A DNA stretch of 64,000 nucleotides. Origin: an uncultured Acidobacteriaceae bacterium. Its GTDB lineage: Bacteria > Acidobacteriota > Terriglobia > Terriglobales > Acidobacteriaceae. The position numbers and the translations under genes are program-made. The stretch is from contig CAWDNI010000007.1 of assembly GCA_963803615.1 (NCBI GenBank), forward strand, positions 23,445-87,444, read 5' to 3'. How positions within the stretch are numbered: the stretch's first letter is position 1; each line of letters begins with the position of its first letter. Positions 980 to 64,000 of this stretch are shown one piece after another. A model generated the notes under the pieces. The model was not told the origin of the DNA and ran no database searches. It saw only the letters and a list, made by a program, of their open reading frames with translations.

Positions 980-2101
980 ATGACTCAGGGCCGTCGATCG
1001 ATCCTGCTGCTCTTGCTCTGCGTGGCATTGGCTCCCTTGCTCTACCGCCACATCGCCTACATCGCGCGCCCGTTTGGAGACACCCGAGTCTATGCTCATG
1101 CCATCGACAACTTCAACAGCGGAAAGTCCCCGTATGTACTGCCCGGCGAACTGCCCTACATTTATCCTCCCGTCTTTGTTTGGGCAGGCAGTTGGCTCTC
1201 CCGGCTGCTCACGCCAGCGCTGGGATGGAAACTCTACGTAACGGTCCATGTTGCCAGTGTGGTTGCGGTGCCGTTCATCCTGGCCCGGTTCTATTTGCGC
1301 CGTTTAGGCTATGTGGAGGCGGTTGCCTTGTTTCTTCTCGCGCCCTTTGCGGTCACTGAAAATGCCATGCTGGGCGGCAATGTTGCCCACCCTTTCTATT
1401 GCGCCGCGCTCTTAGCGGCAGCGCCAGGGCTTTCAAGCAACCGCTGGAGGTGGTTCTACGCCGTAGTCGTTTTAGCCGCAGCCGTGAAAATAACTTTCTT
1501 AATCTTGTTGCTGCTGCCGCTCCTGGCAGGGGCGGCCCAAATACTGCCCAGCGTGATCACGACAGCCATCACCGGGAGCCTTTATCTGCTGCAAATGATC
1601 TGTTCGCCGGAGCTGTACCACCAGTTTCGCGAGACGCTTGCCCGGCAGACCTTTACCTCCCGCAATTATGGCTTTGCGCCTTTCGGAGCCACCGCAAACC
1701 TGCTCTGGCACTTCCATATCTCCGGCTTCATTCTTCCCGCAGCGGTGCAGATCCTCTGCGCAGCAGCCATTCTTTATGTCCTCTGGCGGCTGCGCATGCG
1801 AGCAGAACCAGGAGATGATCGATGGCTGGCCTTGATCCTTGTGGCAATCGTTTTGGTAAACCCCCGCATGTTCGAGTCCGACGTGGCGACTGGACTGCTC
1901 GCAGCCTACTTCCTGCTTCTCTGCAACTGGCGTATCCCGGCAACTTGGGTCCTAGCTGCAATAAGCTTCTCGGGATTTTTCATTCGCCATGGCGCTCTCG
2001 GTTACCTTTTTCTGTTCACGTCGGCCTTCATCGCCGGAGCATGGACTCTACGCAAGGCTCCGGAGAGATCCGAAGCTAATCTCTCCGCCGTTCCCCTCTA
2101 G
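980..2101 (+). CDS. polytopic membrane protein, GT87/DUF2029-like glycosyltransferase candidate
   Basis: 373-aa ORF, hydrophobic throughout with about 10 predicted helices. Divergent from the GT2 gene. Family assignment rests on overall resemblance only. Confidence 0.5.
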   Translation: MTQGRRSILLLLLCVALAPLLYRHIAYIARPFGDTRVYAHAIDNFNSGKSPYVLPGELPYIYPPVFVWAGSWLSRLLTPALGWKLYVTVHVASVVAVPFILARFYLRRLGYVEAVALFLLAPFAVTENAMLGGNVAHPFYCAALLAAAPGLSSNRWRWFYAVVVLAAAVKITFLILLLLPLLAGAAQILPSVITTAITGSLYLLQMICSPELYHQFRETLARQTFTSRNYGFAPFGATANLLWHFHISGFILPAAVQILCAAAILYVLWRLRMRAEPGDDRWLALILVAIVLVNPRMFESDVATGLLAAYFLLLCNWRIPATWVLAAISFSGFFIRHGALGYLFLFTSAFIAGAWTLRKAPERSEANLSAVPL

Positions 2102-2207
2102 TGCGAAGAGTCGTGATTTTAATCGGCTCTCCTGTCCCTTAACTCGAAGCATCTTAGTTGCGACGGAGTTTTCAGCCCTTCGCGTTTTTCCGGTGAAAGG
2201 AGCAATC

Positions 2208-3302
2208 ATGCCACGCCCCTTCTGGTCAGGAACCATTCAGATTTCGCTTGTCGGCTTCGCGGTTGAAATCTATCCCGCGACTACCACCACCCGGCCCATT
2301 TCCTTTCATGAGCTTGACCGCAATACTTTGAGCCGGGTTCGCCGCCAGAACGTGTCAGCAGGTCCGGCGCCTCAACAAGAATCAGTAGCGCCCGAGGCTC
2401 CCGAACAAGCCCCCGACCAAGCCGAGGATATTTCGGCGAAGCACAAGACCTTGCTGCACATAGCGGCGCGAGCCGGTGATCGGGAAGCTGCTCGCGACCT
2501 GCCGGAAAATGCGGGCCAGCACGCTGTGGAGAAGGCTGACATCGTCAAAGGCTACGAATACCAGAAAGGGAAATACGCGATCGTTGAGCCGGCAGAGTTA
2601 AAAAACCTGCGCCTTGCCGGCAGAAAGACGATCGAAATCTCACAATTTTCAAAAGCAGCCGAGATCAATCCCGCCCTGTACGACAAGCCGTACTTCGTGC
2701 TGCCTAAGGCTGGTCCACAGGCAACAGCGTTTGCCGTCGTTCGGCAAAGCATGATCGACAGCAGCATGGTCGGAATTGGCGAAATCGTCTTCAGCGGACG
2801 GCAACATCTGATGGCTCTCGCGCCCCCTCACGATCCGGACCAACCCGGCATGATGCTCTATACCCTGCGCTTTGCCACGGAACTCCGCGACCCGCATGAC
2901 TACTCGGAAGGTATGGAAACCATTCAAGCCGACCCGGCGCAGCTCGGCTTGGCAAAGCAATTGATCGATGCCTACACGCAGCCTTTTGAGCTCGGCAAAT
3001 TCAAGGATCATTACGAGGATGCGCTTCGCGAGCTGGTAGAGGCAAAGATCAACCACTTGCCCCCACCCGCGGCTGAGCCCGAAACGAAACGCGGCCAGGT
3101 CATCGATCTAATGGAAGCACTGCGCCGGAGCCTTGCCCAGCGCAACCTCCCCGAAGCTGTCGCTGACAGTGCACAGCCGGCAGCCGAAACTGCAGTCAAC
3201 GATACACCGCCGAAGAAGCCATCTAGAACGAGCGCCGCGAGAGCCAAAACTGCTGGAGCAACAACCCGGGGCGCATCAGCAAAGAAATCCAAATCCGCTT
3301 AG
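2208..3302 (+). CDS. ku: Ku family DNA end-binding protein (NHEJ)
   Basis: ATG at 2208 is preceded by gaaaggag. N-terminus PFWSGTIQISLVGFAVEIYPA matches the Ku core (W.G.isFGLV.iPV). DIVKGYEY and DKPYFVLP motifs are present, with a Lys/Ala-rich basic tail. The ORF-track start at 1989 is an upstream extension. Confidence 0.85.
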   Translation: MPRPFWSGTIQISLVGFAVEIYPATTTTRPISFHELDRNTLSRVRRQNVSAGPAPQQESVAPEAPEQAPDQAEDISAKHKTLLHIAARAGDREAARDLPENAGQHAVEKADIVKGYEYQKGKYAIVEPAELKNLRLAGRKTIEISQFSKAAEINPALYDKPYFVLPKAGPQATAFAVVRQSMIDSSMVGIGEIVFSGRQHLMALAPPHDPDQPGMMLYTLRFATELRDPHDYSEGMETIQADPAQLGLAKQLIDAYTQPFELGKFKDHYEDALRELVEAKINHLPPPAAEPETKRGQVIDLMEALRRSLAQRNLPEAVADSAQPAAETAVNDTPPKKPSRTSAARAKTAGATTRGASAKKSKSA

Positions 3303-18795: not shown

Positions 18796-19540
18796 TCACA
18801 CTGTTATTGCTTTACCAACCGAAGCCTGACTTCGTGTATTGCCTGAGCTGGTGGTTTTTCCGCTCCCAGATAATTTCTCCATTGGAAGATCCGGGTAGGT
18901 CCAAAAATTGAGGACACTCAATAGCACACGACTATCGGATAAGGGACATGCTCTGACGGCAACGTCGGCAAGTGCCTCGACGCGAGCGCAAACGTTTTTG
19001 CCGGCCAACATGCATGACGCTTGCCACACGTGCTCCTCAGGACGGAAATCGTTAGTGGCAGATAACTGCGCCCCATCCTTGCCAAAAAGGAAAAAGTTCC
19101 CCATATCCTGCGACCAAGGCCAGGTCGGCGCCTTACCATACTGTTGAGCTGAGTGAGCAGACATTCTGAGAGCCGTTCCCTTCGGTCGTCCGATATGGTC
19201 CTCCGGGTAAACTGACCATAACGCTCTCCGCTCCCACGTTAGTCTATCGACATTCTTTGGAAGCAAATAGGCCAGGCCTATCTTAGGCGCCTTGGGAGGA
19301 TTGGCTGAGGTTCGATAGCGGGTGATGATGAGCCCGCTGCCGTCAATCTCCAGGTCGAGATCAAGCTTGATCGTATCTATTCCTCCGTATTCACCCGAGG
19401 AACGAATAGTCACAATATAACTCGGGAGGCACCGCCCGGCCATGCCAATACCTGACTTCGACTGGTGATCGTCTGTGGCGTGGTCGCCGGCGCTCCAGCG
19501 GTCGCAGGTGATCCCGCCGAGATCGATGTTCCAGGAAGAG
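18796..19540 (-). pseudogene. C-terminal fragment of a GH2 beta-galactosidase (domain 5 / Bgal_small_N-like)
   Basis: LEIDGSGLIITRYRTSANPPKAPKIGLAYLLPKNVDRLTWERRALWSVYPEDH parallels LacZ YRIDGSGQMAITVDV..PARIGLNCQL..VERVNWLGLGPQENYPDR. There is no N-terminal catalytic part. The upstream sequence is the TonB receptor. Confidence 0.5.
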
Positions 19541-22500
19541 ATTCGCGAAGGCGCAAGGGTTATACCAGTTGGTCTTGTTCTTGGTGCGCGGCGCACACGA
19601 AACGCCGGGATTGTTCGCGCTATTTGCCGCACCCCCGGCGGCGAACGGATCGCCCACCAAAATAGCGCGCGCCGATCCGCCTACGGCAGTTGCGATATTT
19701 GGAGAGACCGTGATGGGCGGCCCGGATTGATCGACAAAGGTCAGGCTCGTCATCCAACCTCTGGCGATGAGGTTCGGTATGCCTTTCCGGTTCAGGTAGG
19801 CGCGCCCGGTTCCAAATGGAAGCTCGTACAATCCGTTGAAGGTCACTCGGTTGCGCACATCGAAGGCCGAGTTGCTGTAATCGTAGCTAATGGGCAACAA
19901 ATTGGTGCTGCGAAACCCTCCATCCGCGTTGGAGCCAAATGGATCGGGAGCATCATCCAGCGAATGCGCCCAGGTATACGTGGCGAGAAAGCTTAAGCCA
20001 TTGGAAAACCGCTTTTCCACCGTAGTCTGCAGCGAGTTATAGTCGCTCATTGCATTCGGAGAAGAGAAAGTAGCTCCCGCGAAGTCCGGGAACGGCTGAT
20101 AAGACTGCGCGCTCAGCGCGGGATTGATGAGTGCTTTGGAACCATTAGGATTGGTGATCACCACTATATGCCGGGCGGAGCTTCCAACGTAGCTGATCTG
20201 GCCGTGGGATTGCTCGAAAATGAATGCGCAAAGGCCAGGTTGTAATCCATTGAATATTCTGTTTTGGGTGCGTTGGAGATACCGGTCAACCCGGGTGTGG
20301 AGGGAAAGTTCTCTAACCCACAGCCAGCGCTTCGGAAAATCCTCTTTCCAGTGTGATCCCATTGGAGACACAGTTATTGGGAAAGCAGTTGGATGCGGGG
20401 AACGTATCCGTATACTCGAAGGGATAATTGTTCGCTATGTTTGGACTGAAGCCGATATTCTCCAGGCCTCCGTAGAACATTCCCCAACCTCCGCGAATAA
20501 CGGTTGCAGGATCGAGCTGATAGGCGAATCCCAGACGCGGCGCAAAGTTTGTTTTCTGGTTTTCGACCATGCGCGGATTATTGATGTATTGGAGAGCGAT
20601 GTTGTCCTTTGTCAATAATGCAGTGAACCACGGAGCGATGAACACTCCTTTACTCTGGACGGGTATCTGATAAGCACCCGATCCGGTCGCTATGCCGAGA
20701 GCGCCTGTTGTAAAGAAATTTGCCTTCTGTCCGTTCATTTCCTTATAAGGCTGAAGGTAGTCGTAGCGAACACCCAGGTTGAGGGTAAGTCGAGGAGTCA
20801 CTCTCCAGTCATCTTGCGCATATCCGGAACGGTACCATCGCTCATCGTTGGCTTTGATTATGGGCGAGATGTTGGAAGCGTTGTTTTGGCCTGCCAGAAG
20901 ATCGGCGACACCATAGCCGGTAAAGCTTGCGCCGAGATTGCTGGTATATAAGCCGCTGAAACTGTAGGTGCCGTGCGAGTAAGGCGGCTGCAACGTCTGG
21001 TATCGGAGACTCATAAGTTGAATGCCGAACTTCAGCGAATGATTCCCCGCGATCTTGGTTACATTATCGAGAATCTGATAAGCGTTTTGGTGTTCCAAAA
21101 TCGGGTTATAAGCAGGCGAACCCGTAGTGGTGACGCCGTTGGCCTCGCCCACTCCGGCGCCCTCGGCGCCGCTGATAAAGAAGGTAGGCAGGCCGCCATT
21201 ATCCGGGTACTGCGGACCGAATTGAGTTCCCCCTATGCCGATATTCGCTGCGATATTTGTCTGGTAATTTTCCTGGAGAAATCCGAAAAAACCGTAGCTG
21301 TAGCCGAATCTGAACTCATTGATAAGGTTCGAGCTAAAGGAATGCGTCTCGCTTCCTGCGAAATTCTCCGTCCGGTTGATGATTGTTCCGTTGTTGTAGG
21401 CTCTGCCATCGAGTATCGGACCCAGGGGCCCAGGTATATGTCCGGGGGCGTGCAGGTAACTGAATCTCCCAAACATCTGATCCTTGGCGCTGGGGTTATA
21501 GTCCATCCGCGTGTCCCACTGCCAGGTATTGCTCGACGAATTGAGAGTAGTCACATAATTGTTGTAGGTACGCCCATTGTTCGTATTCGGCTGGGGATAG
21601 AGATTAATCAGCGTTTTTGCGACAGGATCAATTTGACTTGCACAGAAGACATTCTGTTGTCCGTTGCATTGCAAAAGCGCAGTGCCGCCTGAATTTGGCT
21701 GATAAAGAGTTATGGGTTTATTTGCACCGGTAAGGCTGGGATTCAGCAATTCGGAAAAGTTTCCTTGGCGCATCAGAGGAGTGGGCACGCTTAGAGTGCT
21801 TGTTTGACCATAGACGATCCGGTTTGCCTCGGCATCGCCGAAGAAGAACAATTTATTGCGGACGATGGGAAGGCCAAGCGTGGCGCCGAATTGGTTCTCG
21901 TGATAAGTCGGGATGGTAAGCGCGTTCCAGTCCTTCGCATCCAGGTCGTTGTTGCGGAAATACTCCCAAAGATCTCCATGAATCTGGTTGGTGCCGGATT
22001 TGATGCTGGCGTTGATTACGGCGCCGGCGGAGTGTCCAAACTCGGCCCCGTAGTTGCTGGTCTCCACCTTGAATTCAGCCAATGCATCCGGCGGCGGCCG
22101 GACCACAAAGCTTGCGCCATTCAGAAAATCCGCGCTGTTTTCATTGTTGTCGACGCCGTCCATGATGAAATCATTCTGCTCTGCCACCTGGCCATTGGCC
22201 TCGAAATCGCCTGAGCCGCCTCCCCTAGACCCGACTGAAGGGTCGGCCCCGGCGGTGAGCTGTGCAATATAGACCCAATTGCGCCCATTGAGAGGCGTGT
22301 CGTTGATGGTACGCGTGCTCAGCACCTGGCCCACAGCGCCCTGTTGGGTCTGCAATAGCGGCGGAGCGCTGGAAACCGTGACAGTCTGGCTCACCACCCC
22401 AGGTTGCAGAACCAGGACGACGTTAAGACGCTCCTGAACATCTACGTGCACGTTCTGCTGAGAAGTTGTTTGGAAGCCGGGAGCAGTTGCGCTCACCGTG

Positions 22501-22707
22501 AAGTTGCCGATCTTGATCGGAGAGAAATTGTAAATACCGTTCGAATCCGCTTTCGTCTTCAAGACCAGGCCGGTATCCGTACTGGTGAGCGCCCTGATCC
22601 TGTTGCGCCACGGCGCGGTAAGCGGGCAGCAGCGCGCAACAAAAACCAACTACCAGGGAGCAGATGCAGCTCTTGCGTCTTTTCAGGTGTCTCACTCCGG
22701 CGGCCAT
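19541..22707 (-). pseudogene. TonB-dependent receptor with CarboxypepD_reg domain, multiply disrupted and 3'-truncated
   Basis: The signal peptide (MAAGVRHLKRRKSCICSLVVGFCCALLPAYRAVAQ, ATG 22707 after ggaagaggaaagag) is in a different frame from the 778-aa body (TINDTPLNGRNW plug). The barrel continues in two more frames after 20313 and about 20200. The last ~100 aa are missing after NWYNPCAFAN. Confidence 0.75.
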
Positions 22708-60691: not shown

Positions 60692-61801
60692 ATGGTTTTA
60701 TCCCGCCTCACCCTCGTTTGTACTTTTCTGTTGTCAGCAAACTTGTTGCTCGCGCAGTCGACGCAGGATTCCAGCTGGACACTGGGCCCTTTCATGCGGC
60801 CAGTGACGGCGCCTATCATCACGCCCCATCCGGCAGCCCTATTTAGCGACCCTGTTACCAAGAAGCCTGTGCACTGGGAGTCGCTGAACACCTTCAACCC
60901 AGCCGCCATCGTGCGCCAAGGCAAGGTTTACGTGTTCTATCGCGCAGAAGACGACTCCGGGAGCATGGTCATCGGGATGCACACCTCTCGCCTGGGCCTG
61001 GCGTCAAGTGACGACGGTATCCACTTCACGACAGAGCCTACTCCGGTTTTCTATCCTGACGTTGATGCGCAGCAAGCGAAGGAATGGCCCGGCGGCGTCG
61101 AAGATCCTCGCCTGGTGGAGCGCCAAGACGGCACTTATGTTCTTGCCTACACGCAATGGAACCGCCACAACACTGATATCGGAATCGCCACATCGAATGA
61201 TCTAATTCACTGGAAAAAACAGGGCGCCGCTCTCCAGGGTGAGAAATACCAGCATCTAGACTACAAGTCGGCCAGCATCGTCACCCGGCTCACGCAAGGC
61301 CGTCTCATCGCGGCCAAGATTGATGGGAAATACTGGATGTACTGGGGCGAGGTACAGGTGCGGGTGGCAACTTCACCGGACCTGGTCCACTGGACACCCG
61401 TCGAAAAATCGTCCGGCAAACCCATCGTGTTGCTGCACAATCGTCCGGGGCACTTCGACAGCGCGTTCCCTGAAGTTGGGCCGCCTTCGCTGCTGACCGA
61501 TCGCGGCATCGTCCTCATCTACAACGGCAAGAATGCGGCGGCGGATGGTGCACCTGGAATCGCCGCCGGCGCCTACTCCGCCGGGCAAGCGCTCTTTGCA
61601 GCCAATGATCCAAGTAAGCTCGTCGCACGCACCGGTCAGCCGTTTCTAAAACCCGAGCAACCGTGGGAACAAAGCGGCCAGTATGTCGCGGGAACCATTT
61701 TTGCCGAAGGGTTGGTGTTCTTCCGTGACAAGTGGTTTCTGTATTACGGCGGCGCCGACTCGCGCGTCGGCGTTGCCGTTTTCGATCCGAAGAAGCCCTG
61801 A
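60692..61801 (+). CDS. glycoside hydrolase family 130 (DUF377-type), secreted
   Basis: Signal peptide. FNPAAIVRQGKVYVFYRAED, GVEDPRLV and YGGADSRVGVA are GH130 beta-propeller motifs. Confidence 0.8.
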   Translation: MVLSRLTLVCTFLLSANLLLAQSTQDSSWTLGPFMRPVTAPIITPHPAALFSDPVTKKPVHWESLNTFNPAAIVRQGKVYVFYRAEDDSGSMVIGMHTSRLGLASSDDGIHFTTEPTPVFYPDVDAQQAKEWPGGVEDPRLVERQDGTYVLAYTQWNRHNTDIGIATSNDLIHWKKQGAALQGEKYQHLDYKSASIVTRLTQGRLIAAKIDGKYWMYWGEVQVRVATSPDLVHWTPVEKSSGKPIVLLHNRPGHFDSAFPEVGPPSLLTDRGIVLIYNGKNAAADGAPGIAAGAYSAGQALFAANDPSKLVARTGQPFLKPEQPWEQSGQYVAGTIFAEGLVFFRDKWFLYYGGADSRVGVAVFDPKKP

Positions 61802-61872
61802 GCACCTCAGCGTATTCGCTCGGGCGCTCAGTTCTTCCCCTTCTTCCAGACCCGACTCCGCGACAACGAGCC

Positions 61873-62190
61873 CTAACTCCTAGCGCTCGAACGGGCGCTT
61901 GTAGGCCAAGGTGGCCTTGTTTTTGCTTGAGTGGGGCAGTCCACTGGCGGACATGGTGTCCCGGCTGCCCGTTCGCGGTTTCTTGCGGTCCACTCGGATT
62001 CAATCTTCACGCGGCCTTCAATCCCGATTGCGTAATGGCGAAAACTGCTCCACTCCCAGCCTTTAGGGCGTTCACACAGCCCGCGCTTCACCGGGTTGCG
62101 ATGAATATAGCCAAGCTTTTCCGCGAACTGCCGCTGATTCCGAACATTGAAATCGTAATAGCGCTTTTGCCAGAAGTGTTCCCGCCTCGC
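61873..62190 (-). mobile_element. REP-associated tyrosine transposase (RAYT / IS200-like Y1) gene remnant, C-terminal half only
   Basis: Translates as EHFWQKRYYDFNVRNQRQFAEKLGYIHRNPVKRGLCERPKGWEWSSFRHYA. There is no N-terminal HUH part and no start codon upstream. Confidence 0.7.
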
Positions 62191-62204
62191 CGATCAACAA
62201 CTTC

Positions 62205-62249
62205 CCCACTCAAGCCAAACAACAAACAAGGCTTGAATGGGCCACCCGC
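62205..62249 (+). repeat. REP-type hairpin
   Basis: CCCACTCAAGCC-13 nt-GGCTTGAATGGG followed by CCACCCGC. Confidence 0.75.
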
Positions 62250-62427
62250 GGAGAGCGAAGCTGCGTCTCACACGCTCCAGCGCGGTCTGGGAACGTCTCC
62301 TTGGTTGTGTTAGTCAGGAACAGTGACGACGATGTTAACAATAGAACGTAACGAAGTGGGTTTGCCCGGCTTGGTGAAATCGCTCCAGAAACCATGGCAC
62401 GAGGTCAAGCTTACGCCCAACTACTTC

Positions 62428-62467
62428 CCCACTCAGGCCAAAACAGGGCTTCAGTGGGCCACCCGCC
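62428..62467 (+). repeat. REP-type hairpin (imperfect)
   Basis: CCCACTCAGGCC-7 nt-GGCTTCAGTGGG followed by CCACCCGCC. Confidence 0.7.
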
Positions 62468-62554
62468 GGTCAGTCGTGGCTATTCCAAGCCGAGTAGTAT
62501 TACTAATGTAGCCCCAGCTAAATGCAGATTTGTCGCGCCACAGGAGTGATTTTC

Positions 62555-63713
62555 ATGGCTGAAAGTAATGAAGAGCAACAACCGTCCGGTACCATCCTAC
62601 TCGAACCCGAAGTAGGAACCCCAACCAAGAAGCAAACCAAGAAAAAAGCCGTCAAGAAGAAAAAGACGGCGATGAAGAAAGCCGTCGCTGGAGGTAGTGC
62701 TCGGGGTGGTGCTGGACGGGTGAAATATCCCAAACACTCGATCCTCGATTGCATCAGAATCCCGCAAGCGATTATCGACCAGAACGCTGGTGAAGCATGT
62801 ACCGACCGTGAAGGTGCAGGGTACGCCAAGATTGGTTGGACTGGTGATATTGCCGTCGAGATCAGCTCCGCCATCAAGTACGGATTGCTAGAGCGTCCTT
62901 CCCCTGGCCATATCAAACCCACAGATCTAGCGCGCAAGATCGTTCGTCCGCAAGATCCGAAGGACAAGCTCACCGCGTTGCGCCAGGCTGTGATGAACGC
63001 TCCTGTTATCTCCGACGTCTACACTAAATATCGCAGCGAGAATCTTCCTGACACCGAGTTCCTCGTCAACACGCTAGTGGATTCATTCAATGTTCCTCGG
63101 GAACAGGTCAATGAGTTTATTGGGGTGTTCACTAAGACGCTGAAGGAAGCAGAGCTTCTGGAAGAACTAAGCAATGGTAAGTTCCGTGTTCTGGATGTTT
63201 CGTCTCCGGCAGACACCAGCACCCAGGTCGGTGAGGAGCAAATCAAGAAACTGTCCAAGGGTTTGACGGTAGCCGCTGATGATACCTGTTTCATCATGAT
63301 GCCGTTCGCCAATCCGATCGGTGGATACTACGACAGCATCTATAAACCCGCGATTGAAAAAGCCAAGCTAAAAGCAGACCGCCGACGCGGAGATCTACGG
63401 CACTGGAAAAATCATCGACCAGATTTGGAAGGGGATCACTTCAGCTCGAGTTTTGTTGGCTGAGATTACAAACCGCAACGCCAACGTGCTCTATGAACTT
63501 GGTCTTGCTCATGCGCTGCATAAGCCTGTCGTGCTTGTGTGCTCCAAAGCGAATGAGGAGGATGTCCCGTTCGATCTTCGTCATGTGCGCGTCATCTACT
63601 ATGACAAGGACGATCCGTTCTGGGGAACCAAGCTGATTGAGAAAATAGCCGAAAAGATTCTCTCAGTCATGCAGGACCCGAAGGACGCGGTCTTGTTTCC
63701 CGAGAAGAAGTAG
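62555..63713 (+). pseudogene. hypothetical protein with Lys-rich N-terminus and C-terminal nucleoside 2-deoxyribosyltransferase-like / TIR-like domain, interrupted by a frameshift near 63375-63390
   Basis: ATG at 62555 follows aggag. KKQTKKKAVKKKKTAMKK tract. The C-terminal domain is split over two frames: CFIMMPFANPIGGYYDSIYKPAIEKAKLKA, then ADAEIYGTGKIIDQIWKGITSARVLLAEITNRNANVLYELGLAHALHKPVVLV...PFDLRHVRVIYY. Confidence 0.65.
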
Positions 63714-63792
63714 CCTCTGCGAGTCTACCTGTACTCACCCACGAGATTGAAACAGCGGGTTGGTGGTCTTCTGCAGTGAAGACCCTTTTCGG

Positions 63793-63831
63793 GCGGGTGG
63801 CCCACTCAAGCCTTGTTTTGGCTTGAGTGGG
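63793..63831 (-). repeat. REP-type hairpin, inverted relative to the two upstream copies
   Basis: GCGGGTGG followed by CCCACTCAAGCC-7 nt-GGCTTGAGTGGG (perfect 12-bp stem). Confidence 0.8.
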
Positions 63832-63957
63832 CAGTTCCATCGGCGGACATGGTCTCCTCCAGCTGCCCGTTCGCGCTTTCTTGCGGTCCACTTGGATTCA
63901 ATCTCCACGCTGCCTTGAATCCTGATTGCGTACGGACGAAAACTGCTCCACTCCCAG
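63832..63957 (-). mobile_element. second RAYT 3'-end remnant (last ~40 codons)
   Basis: Translates as WEWSSFRPYAIRIQGSVEIESKWTARKRERAAG. Together with the adjacent REP it forms a ~148-nt direct repeat of 61913-62059. Confidence 0.6.
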
Positions 63958-64000
63958 ACGGCTTAGAACCTTAGAACGTTTGAGTCGTTGTAGTTGATGC

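What the first reader, a model, noticed from the sequence alone, without database searches (positions are those of the whole stretch)
62555..63713. REP-bounded lower-G+C islet with a frameshifted Lys-rich / NDT-TIR-like single-gene candidate conflict system
The only gene between the inverted REPs has visibly lower G+C than its surroundings. It would encode ~385 aa in three parts. First comes an acidic leader followed by a histone-H1-like basic tract (PTKKQTKKKAVKKKKTAMKKAV). Next is a ~200-aa helical region that looks like tandem winged-helix modules (..AIKYGLLERPSPGHIKPTDLARKIV.., ..FIGVFTKTLKEAELLEEL..). Last is a C-terminal flavodoxin-fold domain with the pattern F(I)MMPF...Y..IY.PAIE...(R)AD.I.....I...I...I..A.VLLAEIT..NANVLYELGLAHAL.KPVVLV......PFDL...RVI.Y. 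That is the nucleoside 2-deoxyribosyltransferase/deoxyribohydrolase-TIR-like pattern, with the YE(L)G glutamate. Such domains are recurrent effector or sensor modules in nucleotide-based anti-phage systems. A basic DNA-binding tail, wHTH modules and an NDT/TIR-like domain would make a self-contained sensor-effector. The reading frame is broken once: frame 2 gives ..AIEKAKLKADRRRGDL, frame 0 gives ADAEIYGTGKII.., and the shift lies within gaccgccgacgcgg at about 63378-63390. The copy here is therefore either inactivated or affected by an indel error.
Basis: partly seen in the sequence, partly recalled or inferred. Interest (0 to 1): 0.65.

Follow-up and report, generated by a model that had tools for sequence, protein, structure and literature searches.

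The report
Broken DNA-binding nucleotide-glycosidase accessory gene
This is a real, well-conserved but uncharacterised accessory gene that joins a DNA-binding front half to a nucleotide-cleaving enzyme domain of the type bacteria use against phages; the copy here is broken by a two-base deletion that may be only an assembly error.

Summary
An ORF starts at ATG 62555 and changes frame once at 63380-63383. Every relative has CGCGCC there and the window has CGCC, so this is a 2-nt deletion. The repaired product is 386 aa.

It has four parts: an acidic leader, a Lys/Arg-rich tract, a confidently modelled tandem winged-helix module, and a C-terminal DNPH1/NDT-type (TIR-related) Rossmannoid domain. 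The catalytic-position Glu of the YELG motif is conserved.

Intact homologues are abundant, with 215 loci in the one-genome-per-species set. They are under strong purifying selection (dN/dS 0.05-0.13). They are phyletically patchy: mostly Acidobacteriota, yet 53-60% identical in at least eight other phyla. No partner gene is conserved.

Roughly a tenth of immediate neighbours are recognisable defence genes. Others are housekeeping genes.

In the window the gene sits in a scar of REP hairpins and two truncated RAYT transposase remnants. This scar cut off an ABC exporter gene.

The best reading is a mobile single-gene nucleic-acid-binding N-glycosidase, probably a conflict or defence module. That function is inferred, not shown.

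The frameshift is either very recent or an assembly artefact. The window lineage still shows 15 synonymous to 6 nonsynonymous changes, and another gene in the window is also split.

The parts
62555..63382 (+). 5' part of the CDS (codons 1-276, in the frame of the ATG). It encodes the acidic leader (aa 1-22), the Lys-rich tract (aa 23-54, pI 11.6), the tandem winged-helix module (aa 55-216), the linker, and the first strand and helix of the C-terminal domain.
63380..63383 (+). Site of the 2-nt deletion. The window has CGCC where relatives have CGCGCC or CGGGCC, which shifts the frame by +1.
   Evidence: alignment columns 1051-1052
63381..63713 (+). 3' part of the CDS (codons 277-386 plus the stop), in the other frame. 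This is the rest of the DNPH1/NDT-type domain. It is open for all 110 codons. The YELG Glu (E315) lies at 63495-63497.
62477..62554 (+). Upstream region that travels with the gene in Acidobacteriaceae relatives. It contains a conserved GAGTAG(A/T)AT box (62492-62500) and an AGGAG ribosome-binding site (62542-62546).
   Evidence: The promoter role is inferred; the sigma-70 scan found nothing.
63765..63790 (+). Short GC hairpin followed by CTTTTCG after the stop codon. It is absent from the closest relative, L008. The fold is weak (z = -0.66).
63792..63831 (.). REP copy d. It forms a 13-bp perfect hairpin (dG -16.7, z = -5.7) and is the inverted partner of REP c. The start of the same REP follows the gene in L008.
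62418..62467 (.). REP copy c. It lies 10 nt upstream of the point where homology with relatives begins.
62195..62249 (.). REP copy b, a direct repeat of copy c.
61873..62185 (-). Truncated REP-associated tyrosine transposase (IS200-like Y1) remnant. Only the C-terminal ~100 codons remain (EHFWQKRYYDFNV...WEWSSFRHYA...). Its 3' end runs through the degenerate REP a (61901-61940).
   Evidence: The homologous intact gene in L028 matches PF01797 Y1_Tnp.
63735..63957 (-). Second, shorter RAYT 3' remnant. Together with REP d it forms a direct repeat of 61914-62059 (83-90% identity).
61820..61905 (-). Remnant of the last ~28 codons of a convergent 608-aa ABC exporter gene, now carrying an internal stop. 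Homology with intact relatives ends exactly where REP a and the RAYT remnant begin.

Best explanation
The gene encodes a self-contained accessory protein that moves horizontally as a single gene.

Proposed mechanism. The N-terminal histone-H1-like basic tract and the first, basic winged helix tether the protein to nucleic acid. The C-terminal DNPH1/NDT-type domain is a sister of TIR domains. I infer that it is an N-glycosidase that cleaves a nucleotide substrate (NAD+, dNMP/NMP or a modified nucleotide) using the conserved YELG glutamate. The most likely biological role is a single-protein conflict module (anti-phage or anti-mobile-element). In that model, nucleic-acid binding localises or activates the hydrolase, perhaps through oligomerisation as in NDT and TIR enzymes, and nucleotide depletion then stops replication.

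The copy in this window. It is interrupted by a 2-nt deletion at 63380-63383, which removes the catalytic part from the reading frame. The deletion is either very recent or an assembly error. The gene lies in a REP/RAYT-scarred insertion that truncated an ABC exporter gene.

Shown: the ORF, the deletion, the domain folds, conservation of the Glu, purifying selection, patchy distribution, absence of a conserved partner, and the flank anatomy.

Inferred: DNA binding, catalytic activity, substrate, defence role, and the way the gene moved.
For: Domains.
- PF05014 scores 24 bits for this protein, below the 28.8-bit cutoff. It passes the cutoff in relatives that carry the same domain and is precomputed for many homologues.
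- A profile of the domain against PDB sequences finds Rcl/DNPH1 at E 1.1e-6, with YELG aligned to YELG.
- The AF2 model of the domain has pLDDT 87 and pTM 0.82.
- All top 50 PDB fold hits are NDT, DNPH1, SARM1-TIR or STING-TIR. The best viral hits are a CMP/hmCMP hydrolase (E 2e-7, TM 0.72) and a Pycsar TIR effector.
- The middle module has pLDDT >90, and its only fold hits are winged-helix proteins.
- The K/R-rich tail is present across phyla; its pI is 11.6.

Accessory and mobile character.
- There are 215 loci among 185,579 species genomes. Identity is 53-60% across Bacteroidota, Proteobacteria, Planctomycetota, Verrucomicrobiota, Nitrospirota and others.
- Homology with the 93%-identical L008 copy is confined to 62477-63749.
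- No neighbour family occurs in more than 9 of 82 loci, and none sits at a fixed position.

Conflict flavour.
- Immediate neighbours include Shedu SduA (x2), ThsB/TIR (x2-3), DrmD, a CBASS 4TM effector, and PDC-S11 and PDC-S66.
- PADLOC families per ORF are about twice as frequent next to the gene as beyond 6.5 kb: 138 per 150 ORFs versus 47 per 111.
- The same C-domain is fused elsewhere to REC+EAD8, GAF, PP2C and TIR_2.
- NDT-like plus winged-helix effectors are established in type II retrons (PMC7736814; bioRxiv 10.1101/2023.08.16.553469).

Frameshift.
- the window branch shows 15 synonymous to 6 nonsynonymous changes, and the shifted frame carries no stops.
Against: - No PADLOC system model matches; there is only a weak TIR-effector hit.
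- No full-length member was found in PLSDB plasmids, INPHARED phages or IMG/VR.
- Most neighbours are ordinary genes such as DnaK, PGI, ThiC, RNR and enolase.
- The defence-neighbour enrichment rests on a crude control.
- Conservation is very high for an immune gene: the C-domain is at least 65% identical between bacteria and archaea, and dN/dS is about 0.1.
- The Asp that binds the sugar 3'-OH in Rcl (the QQAD motif) aligns with Lys/Arg here. The chemistry may therefore differ, or the domain may only bind a ligand.
- Fold-search E-values against the PDB are modest (2e-3 or worse). Those for the winged-helix module are weak (4e-3 or worse).
- Lack of synteny is not unique to this gene. The neighbouring GH130 gene also shares only gene-length homology with its 95% relatives.
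Confidence: 0.45

Rival explanations
1. Nucleotide-sensing DNA-binding regulator or nucleoid protein. The winged helices and basic tail bind chromosomal DNA. The NDT/TIR-like domain is a non-catalytic ligand sensor that modulates that binding.
For: The architecture of a DNA-binding module followed by a small-molecule-binding Rossmannoid domain is typical of regulators. The sugar-binding Asp of Rcl is replaced. Conservation is very high. Inactive TIR/DrHyd/SLOG domains acting as sensors are described in PMC9503650.
Against: There is no conserved neighbouring target gene or operon. The distribution is far too patchy for a core nucleoid protein. The catalytic-position Glu and a set of polar residues (R276, D278, N309, N311, H320, D341, R346) are invariant across 16-73 sequences. 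In other proteins the domain sits in the output position after REC or GAF.
Confidence: 0.15
2. Non-conflict nucleotide-pool or DNA hygiene enzyme. This would be a DNPH1-like hydrolase tethered to the nucleoid that removes aberrant or modified deoxynucleotides, or excises bases from DNA, as part of maintenance.
For: The nearest solved relatives by sequence are DNPH1/Rcl, the 5-hydroxymethyl-dUMP N-hydrolases. Purifying selection is strong. Many neighbours are housekeeping genes.
Against: The gene is an accessory with sporadic, cross-phylum distribution at high identity. It is frequently found disrupted. It has no link to repair or salvage operons. Here it sits in a transposase and REP scar.
Confidence: 0.15
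3. Cargo of a mobile element that serves the element itself (maintenance, exclusion or counter-defence) rather than the host.
For: Protein-primed-type PolB genes (PF03175) lie within 0-7 kb in L001, L002 and L011, and L002 also has a Cas1. IS3 or IS200-like transposases lie next to the gene in L005, L028, L044, L077 and the window. Related domains occur in Staphylococcus and Streptococcus phages and on enterobacterial plasmids.
Against: No full-length member was found in plasmid, phage or IMG/VR collections. The mobile-element genes are not at fixed distance or orientation, and they occur in only a few of the 82 loci.
Confidence: 0.1
4. About the break only: the 2-nt deletion is not biological but an indel error of the assembly, and the gene is intact in the organism.
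For: The window lineage shows 15 synonymous to 6 conservative nonsynonymous changes since it split from L008. The 110 codons after the shift carry no stop. A second gene in the window, an outer-membrane barrel at 18796-22649(-), is split between adjacent ORFs matching PF25183 positions 2-502 and 549-757. The closest relative L008, a MAG, has a different frameshift at codon ~26. Several public copies carry multiple frameshifts typical of noisy assemblies, for example P0435 and P0280.
Against: A loss of one unit from a CGCG dinucleotide repeat is a plausible genuine slippage mutation and is not a homopolymer error. Eight other genes tested in the window are full length. Other copies are disrupted in ways that are not indel errors: an inversion in L025, truncation in L045 and an in-frame stop in L043. 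Real decay of this family therefore does occur.
Confidence: 0.55

Closest known systems
Type II retron effectors (Retron-Eco1/Ec86, Sen2, Eco3): NDT-like domain plus winged-helix DNA-binding domain
   Same: They have the same two building blocks in one polypeptide: a nucleoside-deoxyribosyltransferase-like domain with a nucleic-acid-binding winged helix. The NDT-like domain is the toxic, nucleotide-depleting part, and it is regulated through contact with nucleic acid (PMC7736814; bioRxiv 10.1101/2023.08.16.553469).
   Different: The domain order is reversed: wH-wH-NDT here, NDT-wH there. This family has an H1-like basic tail. No reverse transcriptase or msr/msd RNA is nearby: there is no conserved neighbour and no Rfam hit. 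No retron model in PADLOC is matched, and no retron effector appears among the top fold hits.
DNPH1/Rcl and nucleoside 2-deoxyribosyltransferases (Pfam PF05014; DrHyd superfamily), including CMP/hmCMP hydrolases
   Same: The fold is shared, as is the YELG motif, whose Glu aligns with the Glu of the Rcl YELG motif. These are the nearest solved structures by sequence (E 1.1e-6) and by fold.
   Different: Those enzymes are stand-alone ~150-aa metabolic enzymes. Here the domain is fused to DNA-binding modules. The Rcl Asp in QQAD is replaced by Lys/Arg, there is a family-specific set of invariant residues (RAD, RNxNV, H320, PFD, W357), and the Pfam score is below the cutoff.
Bacterial TIR-domain immune effectors and sensors (Thoeris ThsB, CBASS/Pycsar TIR effectors, TIR-STING, SARM1-type NADases)
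   Same: The domains are structurally related Rossmannoids with an equivalent catalytic Glu position. SARM1 and SfSTING TIR domains are among the fold hits, as is a Pycsar TIR effector. There is a weak PADLOC TIR-effector hit. Homologous domains on plasmids are annotated as TIR domain-containing.
   Different: No Pfam TIR, TIR_2 or TIR-like model is matched at E<=1. By sequence the domain is closer to DNPH1 than to any TIR. No signalling partner gene such as ThsA is present.
REP / RAYT (REP-associated tyrosine transposase) clusters
   Same: The locus has hairpin-forming ~40-nt repeats in both orientations next to IS200-like Y1 transposase sequence.
   Different: Both RAYT copies are 3' remnants and no intact transposase is present. 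The repeats enclose a protein-coding passenger gene. Whether they moved it is not shown.

Membership tests
NDT / DNPH1 (DrHyd) superfamily, Pfam PF05014 | Three-layer alpha/beta Rossmannoid fold like NDT/DNPH1 | tested here: met
   The AF2 domain model has pLDDT 87.3 and pTM 0.82. All top 50 PDB hits are NDT, DNPH1 or TIR, with probability ~1 and TM 0.5-0.6, but E only 2e-3 to 5e-2. The best BFVD hit is a CMP/hmCMP hydrolase, E 2e-7, TM 0.72.
NDT / DNPH1 (DrHyd) superfamily, Pfam PF05014 | Catalytic glutamate nucleophile in the Y-E-(L/I)-G motif after the fourth strand | tested here: met
   E315 is invariant in 16, 54 and 73-sequence alignments. It aligns with the YELG motif of Rcl/DNPH1.
NDT / DNPH1 (DrHyd) superfamily, Pfam PF05014 | Conserved Asp that binds the deoxyribose 3'-OH (QQAD in Rcl) | tested here: not met
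   In the profile alignment that position is Lys/Arg: 'qeak' / SAR, with R299 invariant.
NDT / DNPH1 (DrHyd) superfamily, Pfam PF05014 | Score above the Pfam gathering threshold | tested here: not met
   This protein scores 24.0 bits against a 28.8-bit cutoff, E 4.5e-5. Relatives with the same domain pass at 29.6-35.6 bits.
NDT / DNPH1 (DrHyd) superfamily, Pfam PF05014 | N-glycosidic bond cleavage or transfer activity | not testable with these tools
   This needs an enzyme assay.
TIR domain (Pfam TIR, TIR_2; bacterial immune TIRs) | Match to TIR sequence models | tested here: not met
   No Pfam TIR family is matched at E<=1. The only hit is PADLOC TIR-effector HMM PDLC00733 at E 9.7e-5, 19 bits.
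TIR domain (Pfam TIR, TIR_2; bacterial immune TIRs) | TIR-like fold with the catalytic Glu in the equivalent position | tested here: inconclusive
   SARM1 and SfSTING TIR domains appear among the fold hits at TM ~0.57, but they rank behind NDT/DNPH1.
Type II retron effector | NDT-like domain and winged-helix DNA-binding domain in one protein | tested here: met
   Both modules are present, but in the opposite order (PMC7736814).
Type II retron effector | Encoded next to a retron reverse transcriptase and msr/msd ncRNA | tested here: not met
   No neighbour is conserved in 82 loci. There is no Rfam hit in 58-64 kb. The window's flanking ORFs are REP/RAYT remnants.
Known anti-phage defence system (PADLOC-DB v2) | Match to a system protein model, and co-occurrence with that system's genes | tested here: not met
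   There is only the weak TIR-effector hit, and no fixed partner gene.
Defence-island resident (guilt by association) | Significant enrichment of known defence genes in the neighbourhood | tested here: inconclusive
   About 13 of 150 immediate neighbours give strong hits to SduA, ThsB, DrmD, the 4TM effector and others. There are 138 PADLOC families per 150 ORFs next to the gene, against 47 per 111 beyond 6.5 kb. No genome-wide background was available.
REP/RAYT element | Palindromic REP repeats flanking an intact Y1 (HUH) transposase | tested here: not met
   REP hairpins are present, but only C-terminal RAYT remnants remain.
Programmed ribosomal frameshift | The frame change is conserved in relatives | tested here: not met
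   All aligned relatives are in one frame at this site.

The most novel reading that the evidence does not exclude
The family is a previously unrecognised single-protein immune system. An H1-like tail and tandem winged helices read invading or damaged DNA. They switch on a DNPH1/NDT-fold N-glycosidase that either depletes a nucleotide pool or, more radically, removes bases directly from (modified) DNA. The gene spreads between phyla as a promoter-gene-REP cassette that REP-associated transposases can relocate.
Probability: 0.25. Interest if true: 0.7.

Novelty: new variant of a known kind. Interest (0 to 1): 0.45.

Why it matters
NDT/DNPH1-type and TIR-type hydrolases are recurrent killing or signalling modules of bacterial immunity, and they are related to human DNPH1 and SARM1. 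A widespread, strongly conserved family remains annotated only as 'hypothetical protein'. It couples such a domain directly to a DNA-binding module, without a retron or any other partner. If active, it would be one of the simplest sensor-effector designs, and it is easy to test with one gene, one point mutant and a phage panel.

For this particular window the practical message is more modest. The gene is real, the copy is broken or mis-assembled, and it marks a REP/RAYT-scarred insertion point.

Tried and rejected
- Conserved partner gene. All-vs-all clustering of ORFs in 82 loci found none.
- Retron or ncRNA next to the gene. There is no Rfam hit and no tRNA.
- Known defence system. PADLOC and NCBIfam gave nothing usable.
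- Phage or plasmid carriage. tblastn against INPHARED and PLSDB and a scan of IMG/VR found only distant C-domain relatives and no full-length member.
- Programmed frameshift. Rejected, because relatives are in a single frame.
- Widespread frameshifts in the window. Overlapping ORF pairs were checked with Pfam. Most are separate, full-length genes; only the outer-membrane barrel gene is split.
- Full-length AF2 model. The C-domain came out at low confidence, so the domain was remodelled alone with a more diverse alignment.
- Winged-helix module fused to other effectors. Only fragments or frameshifted copies of the same family were found.
- Recovering the window's own contig, to see past base 64000 and identify the sample. 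Two look-ups returned nothing on record.
- Finding an empty site. Metagenome relatives of the GH130 neighbour defined the left breakpoint at 61905, but the right flank lies beyond the window.
- Sigma-70 promoter and terminator scan. It was uninformative.
Full report
**1. What is in the sequence**

An ORF opens at ATG 62555, behind an AGGAG ribosome-binding site at 62542-62546. It reads 276 sensible codons and then runs out of frame to a stop at 63463. The frame of base 63381 carries on with ADAEIYGTGKII... to the stop at 63711-63713.

A DNA alignment with four relatives shows exactly what happened. They read GCAGACCGCGCCGAC (or ...CGGGCC...). The window reads GCAGACCGCCGAC, so one GC/CG unit is lost at 63380-63383. 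All 54 aligned homologues read KAKLKADRADA(E/D)IYGTGKI in a single frame, so this is not a programmed shift. The repaired product is 386 aa.

**2. The gene is real and selected; the break is young or artefactual**

- Pairwise dN/dS among five relatives and the repaired window gene is 0.05-0.13.
- I polarised the differences between the window and its closest relative L008 (93% nt identity) with four outgroups. This assigns 15 synonymous and 6 conservative nonsynonymous changes to the window branch. Roughly 5:16 would be expected without constraint.
- The 110 codons after the shift contain no stop.

The copy was therefore under selection for nearly all of its separate history.

Points in favour of an assembly error:
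- A TonB-dependent-type outer-membrane barrel gene at 18796-22649(-) is also split in this window. Pfam PF25183 positions 2-502 fall in one ORF and 549-757 in the next.
- L008, a MAG, carries a different frameshift at codon ~26.
- Several public copies have multiple frameshifts (P0435, P0280).

Points in favour of a real mutation:
- Loss of a unit from CGCG is an ordinary slippage event.
- Eight other genes checked in the window are full length.
- Some relatives are disrupted by an inversion, a truncation or an in-frame stop (L025, L045, L043).

I put the artefact at about 55%.

**3. The family**

The repaired protein finds more than 2,300 proteins. The best 120 are 300-392 aa (all but a few 366-392 aa) and 63-98% identical, and where a source names them at all they are 'hypothetical protein'. 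The named sources are Tunturiibacter gelidiferens and Terriglobia MAGs. The window is thus most likely from an Acidobacteriaceae genome.

In the one-genome-per-species collection, 215 loci encode a relative. About half of the best 80 are Acidobacteriota. The rest are Chitinophagaceae, Mucilaginibacter, Pedobacter, Flavobacterium, Bacteroides, Pseudoxanthomonas, Dyella, Cupriavidus, Pigmentiphaga, Mesorhizobium, Hellea, Planctomycetota, Verrucomicrobiota, Nitrospirota, Gemmatimonadota, Spirochaetes and Saccharibacteria. These still share 53-60% identity over ~330 residues. A handful of species per genus, combined with high cross-phylum identity, is the signature of an accessory gene that moves horizontally. 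It is not the signature of a housekeeping gene.

**4. Anatomy of the protein**

- *Residues 1-22* are acidic. *Residues 23-54* are a Lys-rich tract with 12 K/R, no D/E and pI 11.6. A K/R-rich tract directly before the folded part is present in members from all phyla examined.
- *Residues ~60-220* are modelled by AlphaFold2 at pLDDT >90 as two helix-rich modules with short hairpins. Foldseek finds only weak matches (E 4e-3 or worse). Nearly all of the matched proteins contain winged-helix domains: GntR, IdeR/DtxR, SelB, Stn1, STK19, TrmBL2 and RNA polymerase III subunits. The first half is basic (pI 8.7) and the second acidic (pI 4.85).
- *C-terminal domain, first model.* After a ~27-residue linker comes the C-terminal domain. 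It was poorly modelled in the full-length run.
- *C-terminal domain, second model.* Modelled alone with a diverse 73-sequence alignment, it reaches pLDDT 87.3 and pTM 0.82.
- *Fold matches for the C-terminal domain.* All top 50 PDB matches are nucleoside 2-deoxyribosyltransferases, DNPH1/Rcl, SARM1 TIR or SfSTING TIR. The best viral matches are a CMP/hmCMP hydrolase (E 2e-7, TM 0.72) and a Pycsar TIR effector.
- *By sequence*, the domain profile hits Rcl/DNPH1 at E 1.1e-6, with YELG aligned on YELG. E315 is invariant in every alignment made.
- *Two cautions.* The Pfam PF05014 score is below the cutoff for this protein (24 vs 28.8 bits), although relatives pass. The Rcl Asp in QQAD aligns with an invariant Arg/Lys here.

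The domain is a large family in its own right: 18,906 50%-identity clusters reach E<=1e-3. Elsewhere it is fused to REC+EAD8, GAF, PP2C/SpoIIE, a PMT_2 glycosyltransferase and TIR_2. It is also fused to TPR/DUF4071 'TRAFs-binding' proteins on enterobacterial plasmids and occurs in small proteins of Staphylococcus and Streptococcus phages. By contrast, the winged-helix module was found only in this architecture. Apparent exceptions are fragments or frameshifted copies.

**5. The locus in the window**

The REP core motif occurs three times in 64 kb, all next to this gene, against 0.36 expected. In full there are four copies:
- a degenerate one at 61901-61940;
- 62195-62249;
- 62418-62467;
- 63792-63831, which folds into a 13-bp perfect hairpin (z = -5.7).

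Two direct repeats, 61914-62059 and 63810-63957, each comprise a REP plus the 3' end of an IS200-like REP-associated tyrosine transposase on the minus strand. Both transposase copies are truncated. An intact homologue next to the family gene in L028 matches PF01797.

To the left, metagenome relatives of the GH130 gene (60692-61801) show what used to be there. In L091 and L092 a convergent 608-aa ABC exporter follows. In the window only its last ~28 codons survive (61820-61905), with an internal stop. Homology ends exactly where the first REP/RAYT remnant starts.

The gene therefore lies inside an insertion or rearrangement that destroyed a resident gene. The right-hand junction is beyond base 64000.

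G+C of the gene is 51.3% against 56.8% for the window, the 4th percentile.

**6. Context elsewhere**

- Homology between the window and the 93%-identical L008 copy runs only from 62477 (78 nt before the ATG) to ~63749. It then resumes for the first ~28 nt of the same REP. No other part of the window matches any of the 87 loci.
- Clustering all ORFs of 82 loci found no neighbour family in more than 9 loci, and none at a fixed distance or orientation.
- The 150 immediate neighbours are a mixture. On one side are TIR_2 (3), Shedu SduA (2), ThsB (2), DrmD, a PD-T4-6-like kinase, a CBASS 4TM effector, QueC, PDC-S11 and PDC-S66. On the other are DnaK, PGI, ThiC, ribonucleotide reductase and enolase.
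- As a rough control, the first ORFs beyond 6.5 kb gave 47 PADLOC families per 111 ORFs, against 138 per 150 next to the gene. That is suggestive, not conclusive.
- Lack of synteny is also not special to this gene. The GH130 neighbour likewise shares only gene-length homology with its 95% relatives.

**7. How it most likely works**

Shown: a nucleic-acid-binding-type front half and a DNPH1/NDT-type back half with the catalytic-position Glu, encoded by a lone, mobile and selected gene.

Inferred: the basic tail and first winged helix hold the protein on DNA or RNA. The hydrolase cleaves an N-glycosidic bond in NAD+ or a (deoxy)nucleotide. Activity is gated by nucleic-acid binding or oligomerisation, as is known for NDT dimers/hexamers and TIR assemblies. 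The biological purpose is conflict with phages or other mobile DNA.

I give this about 45%. The rivals are:
- a non-catalytic nucleotide-sensing regulator (15%);
- a non-conflict nucleotide or DNA hygiene enzyme (15%);
- a function serving a mobile element (10%).

The truncated product made from the window sequence as it stands (302 aa) would keep the DNA-binding half but lose E315. It could not be an active hydrolase.

**8. Comparison with what is known**

The closest described design is the type II retron effector, an NDT-like domain plus a winged-helix DNA-binding domain. Its NDT-like lobe contacts msDNA, and one preprint reports that it depletes adenine derivatives. The family here differs in four ways: the domain order is reversed, it has the H1-like tail, it has no reverse transcriptase or ncRNA, and no sequence match to retron models was detected.

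I would file the C-terminal domain in the NDT/DNPH1 (DrHyd) superfamily on fold, motif and profile evidence, while noting the replaced Asp and the sub-threshold Pfam score. It is not a TIR by sequence.

No paper found in the library describes this architecture.

**9. Verdict**

The domain reading is correct. The 'conflict system' label is plausible but unproven. The copy in this window is non-functional as written and possibly mis-assembled. The family is a new variant of a known kind and a reasonable, cheap target for experiment.

Noticed in passing
window 18796-22649 (-): A CarboxypepD_reg + OMP_b-brl_4 (TonB-dependent-type) outer-membrane protein gene is split. ORF 20313-22649 matches PF25183 positions 2-502, and the next ORF 19391-20371 matches 549-757. 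This implies a frameshift near 20313-20371. It is a second broken gene in the window and bears on assembly quality.
   Followed up: partly
window 61820-61905 (-): Decayed remnant (~28 codons, internal stop) of the 3' end of a 608-aa ABC exporter. The exporter is intact and convergent to the GH130 gene in metagenome relatives L091 and L092.
   Followed up: yes
window 60701-61821 vs L088/L089: The GH130 gene is 94.6% identical at the DNA level to two metagenome contigs, but only over the gene itself. Neither flank is shared. This end of the window looks like a mosaic of individually exchanged genes.
   Followed up: partly
L008 10001-10090: The closest relative of the gene (93% nt, an Acidobacteriaceae MAG) has its own frameshift at about codon 26, in the region encoding the basic tail.
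   Followed up: yes
L001 13886-16918, L002 1-1511 and 3901-5436, L011 11012-12722: Large protein-primed-type PolB genes (PF03175) lie within 0-7 kb of the family gene in three Acidobacteriota genomes. In L002 there is also a 511-aa Cas1. This may be a casposon- or pipolin-like element.
   Followed up: partly
L055 11087-12262 (-): A 391-aa protein lies directly convergent to the family gene. It has two tandem copies of the same NDT/TIR-like domain, separated by a coiled-coil-like segment (30-39% identical to the C-domain; PF05014 31 bits).
   Followed up: partly
proteins P0401+P0355, P0391, P0412, P0411, P0435, P0280: Many public assemblies carry split or frameshifted copies of this family. P0411 breaks at the same VRAD motif as the window. 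P0401 and P0355 are adjacent locus tags in one MAG.
   Followed up: partly
L028 11974-12501, L044 6297-6839, L077 12193-12834 and 14710-15294: IS200-like Y1 transposases homologous to the window's RAYT remnants lie within ~2 kb of the family gene in three unrelated genomes (Acidoferrales, Burkholderiales, Chitinophagaceae).
   Followed up: partly
window 1989-3302 (+): ORF with a Ku70/Ku80 beta-barrel domain (PF02735, E 1.7e-39), a bacterial NHEJ Ku. It is unrelated to the finding.
   Followed up: no
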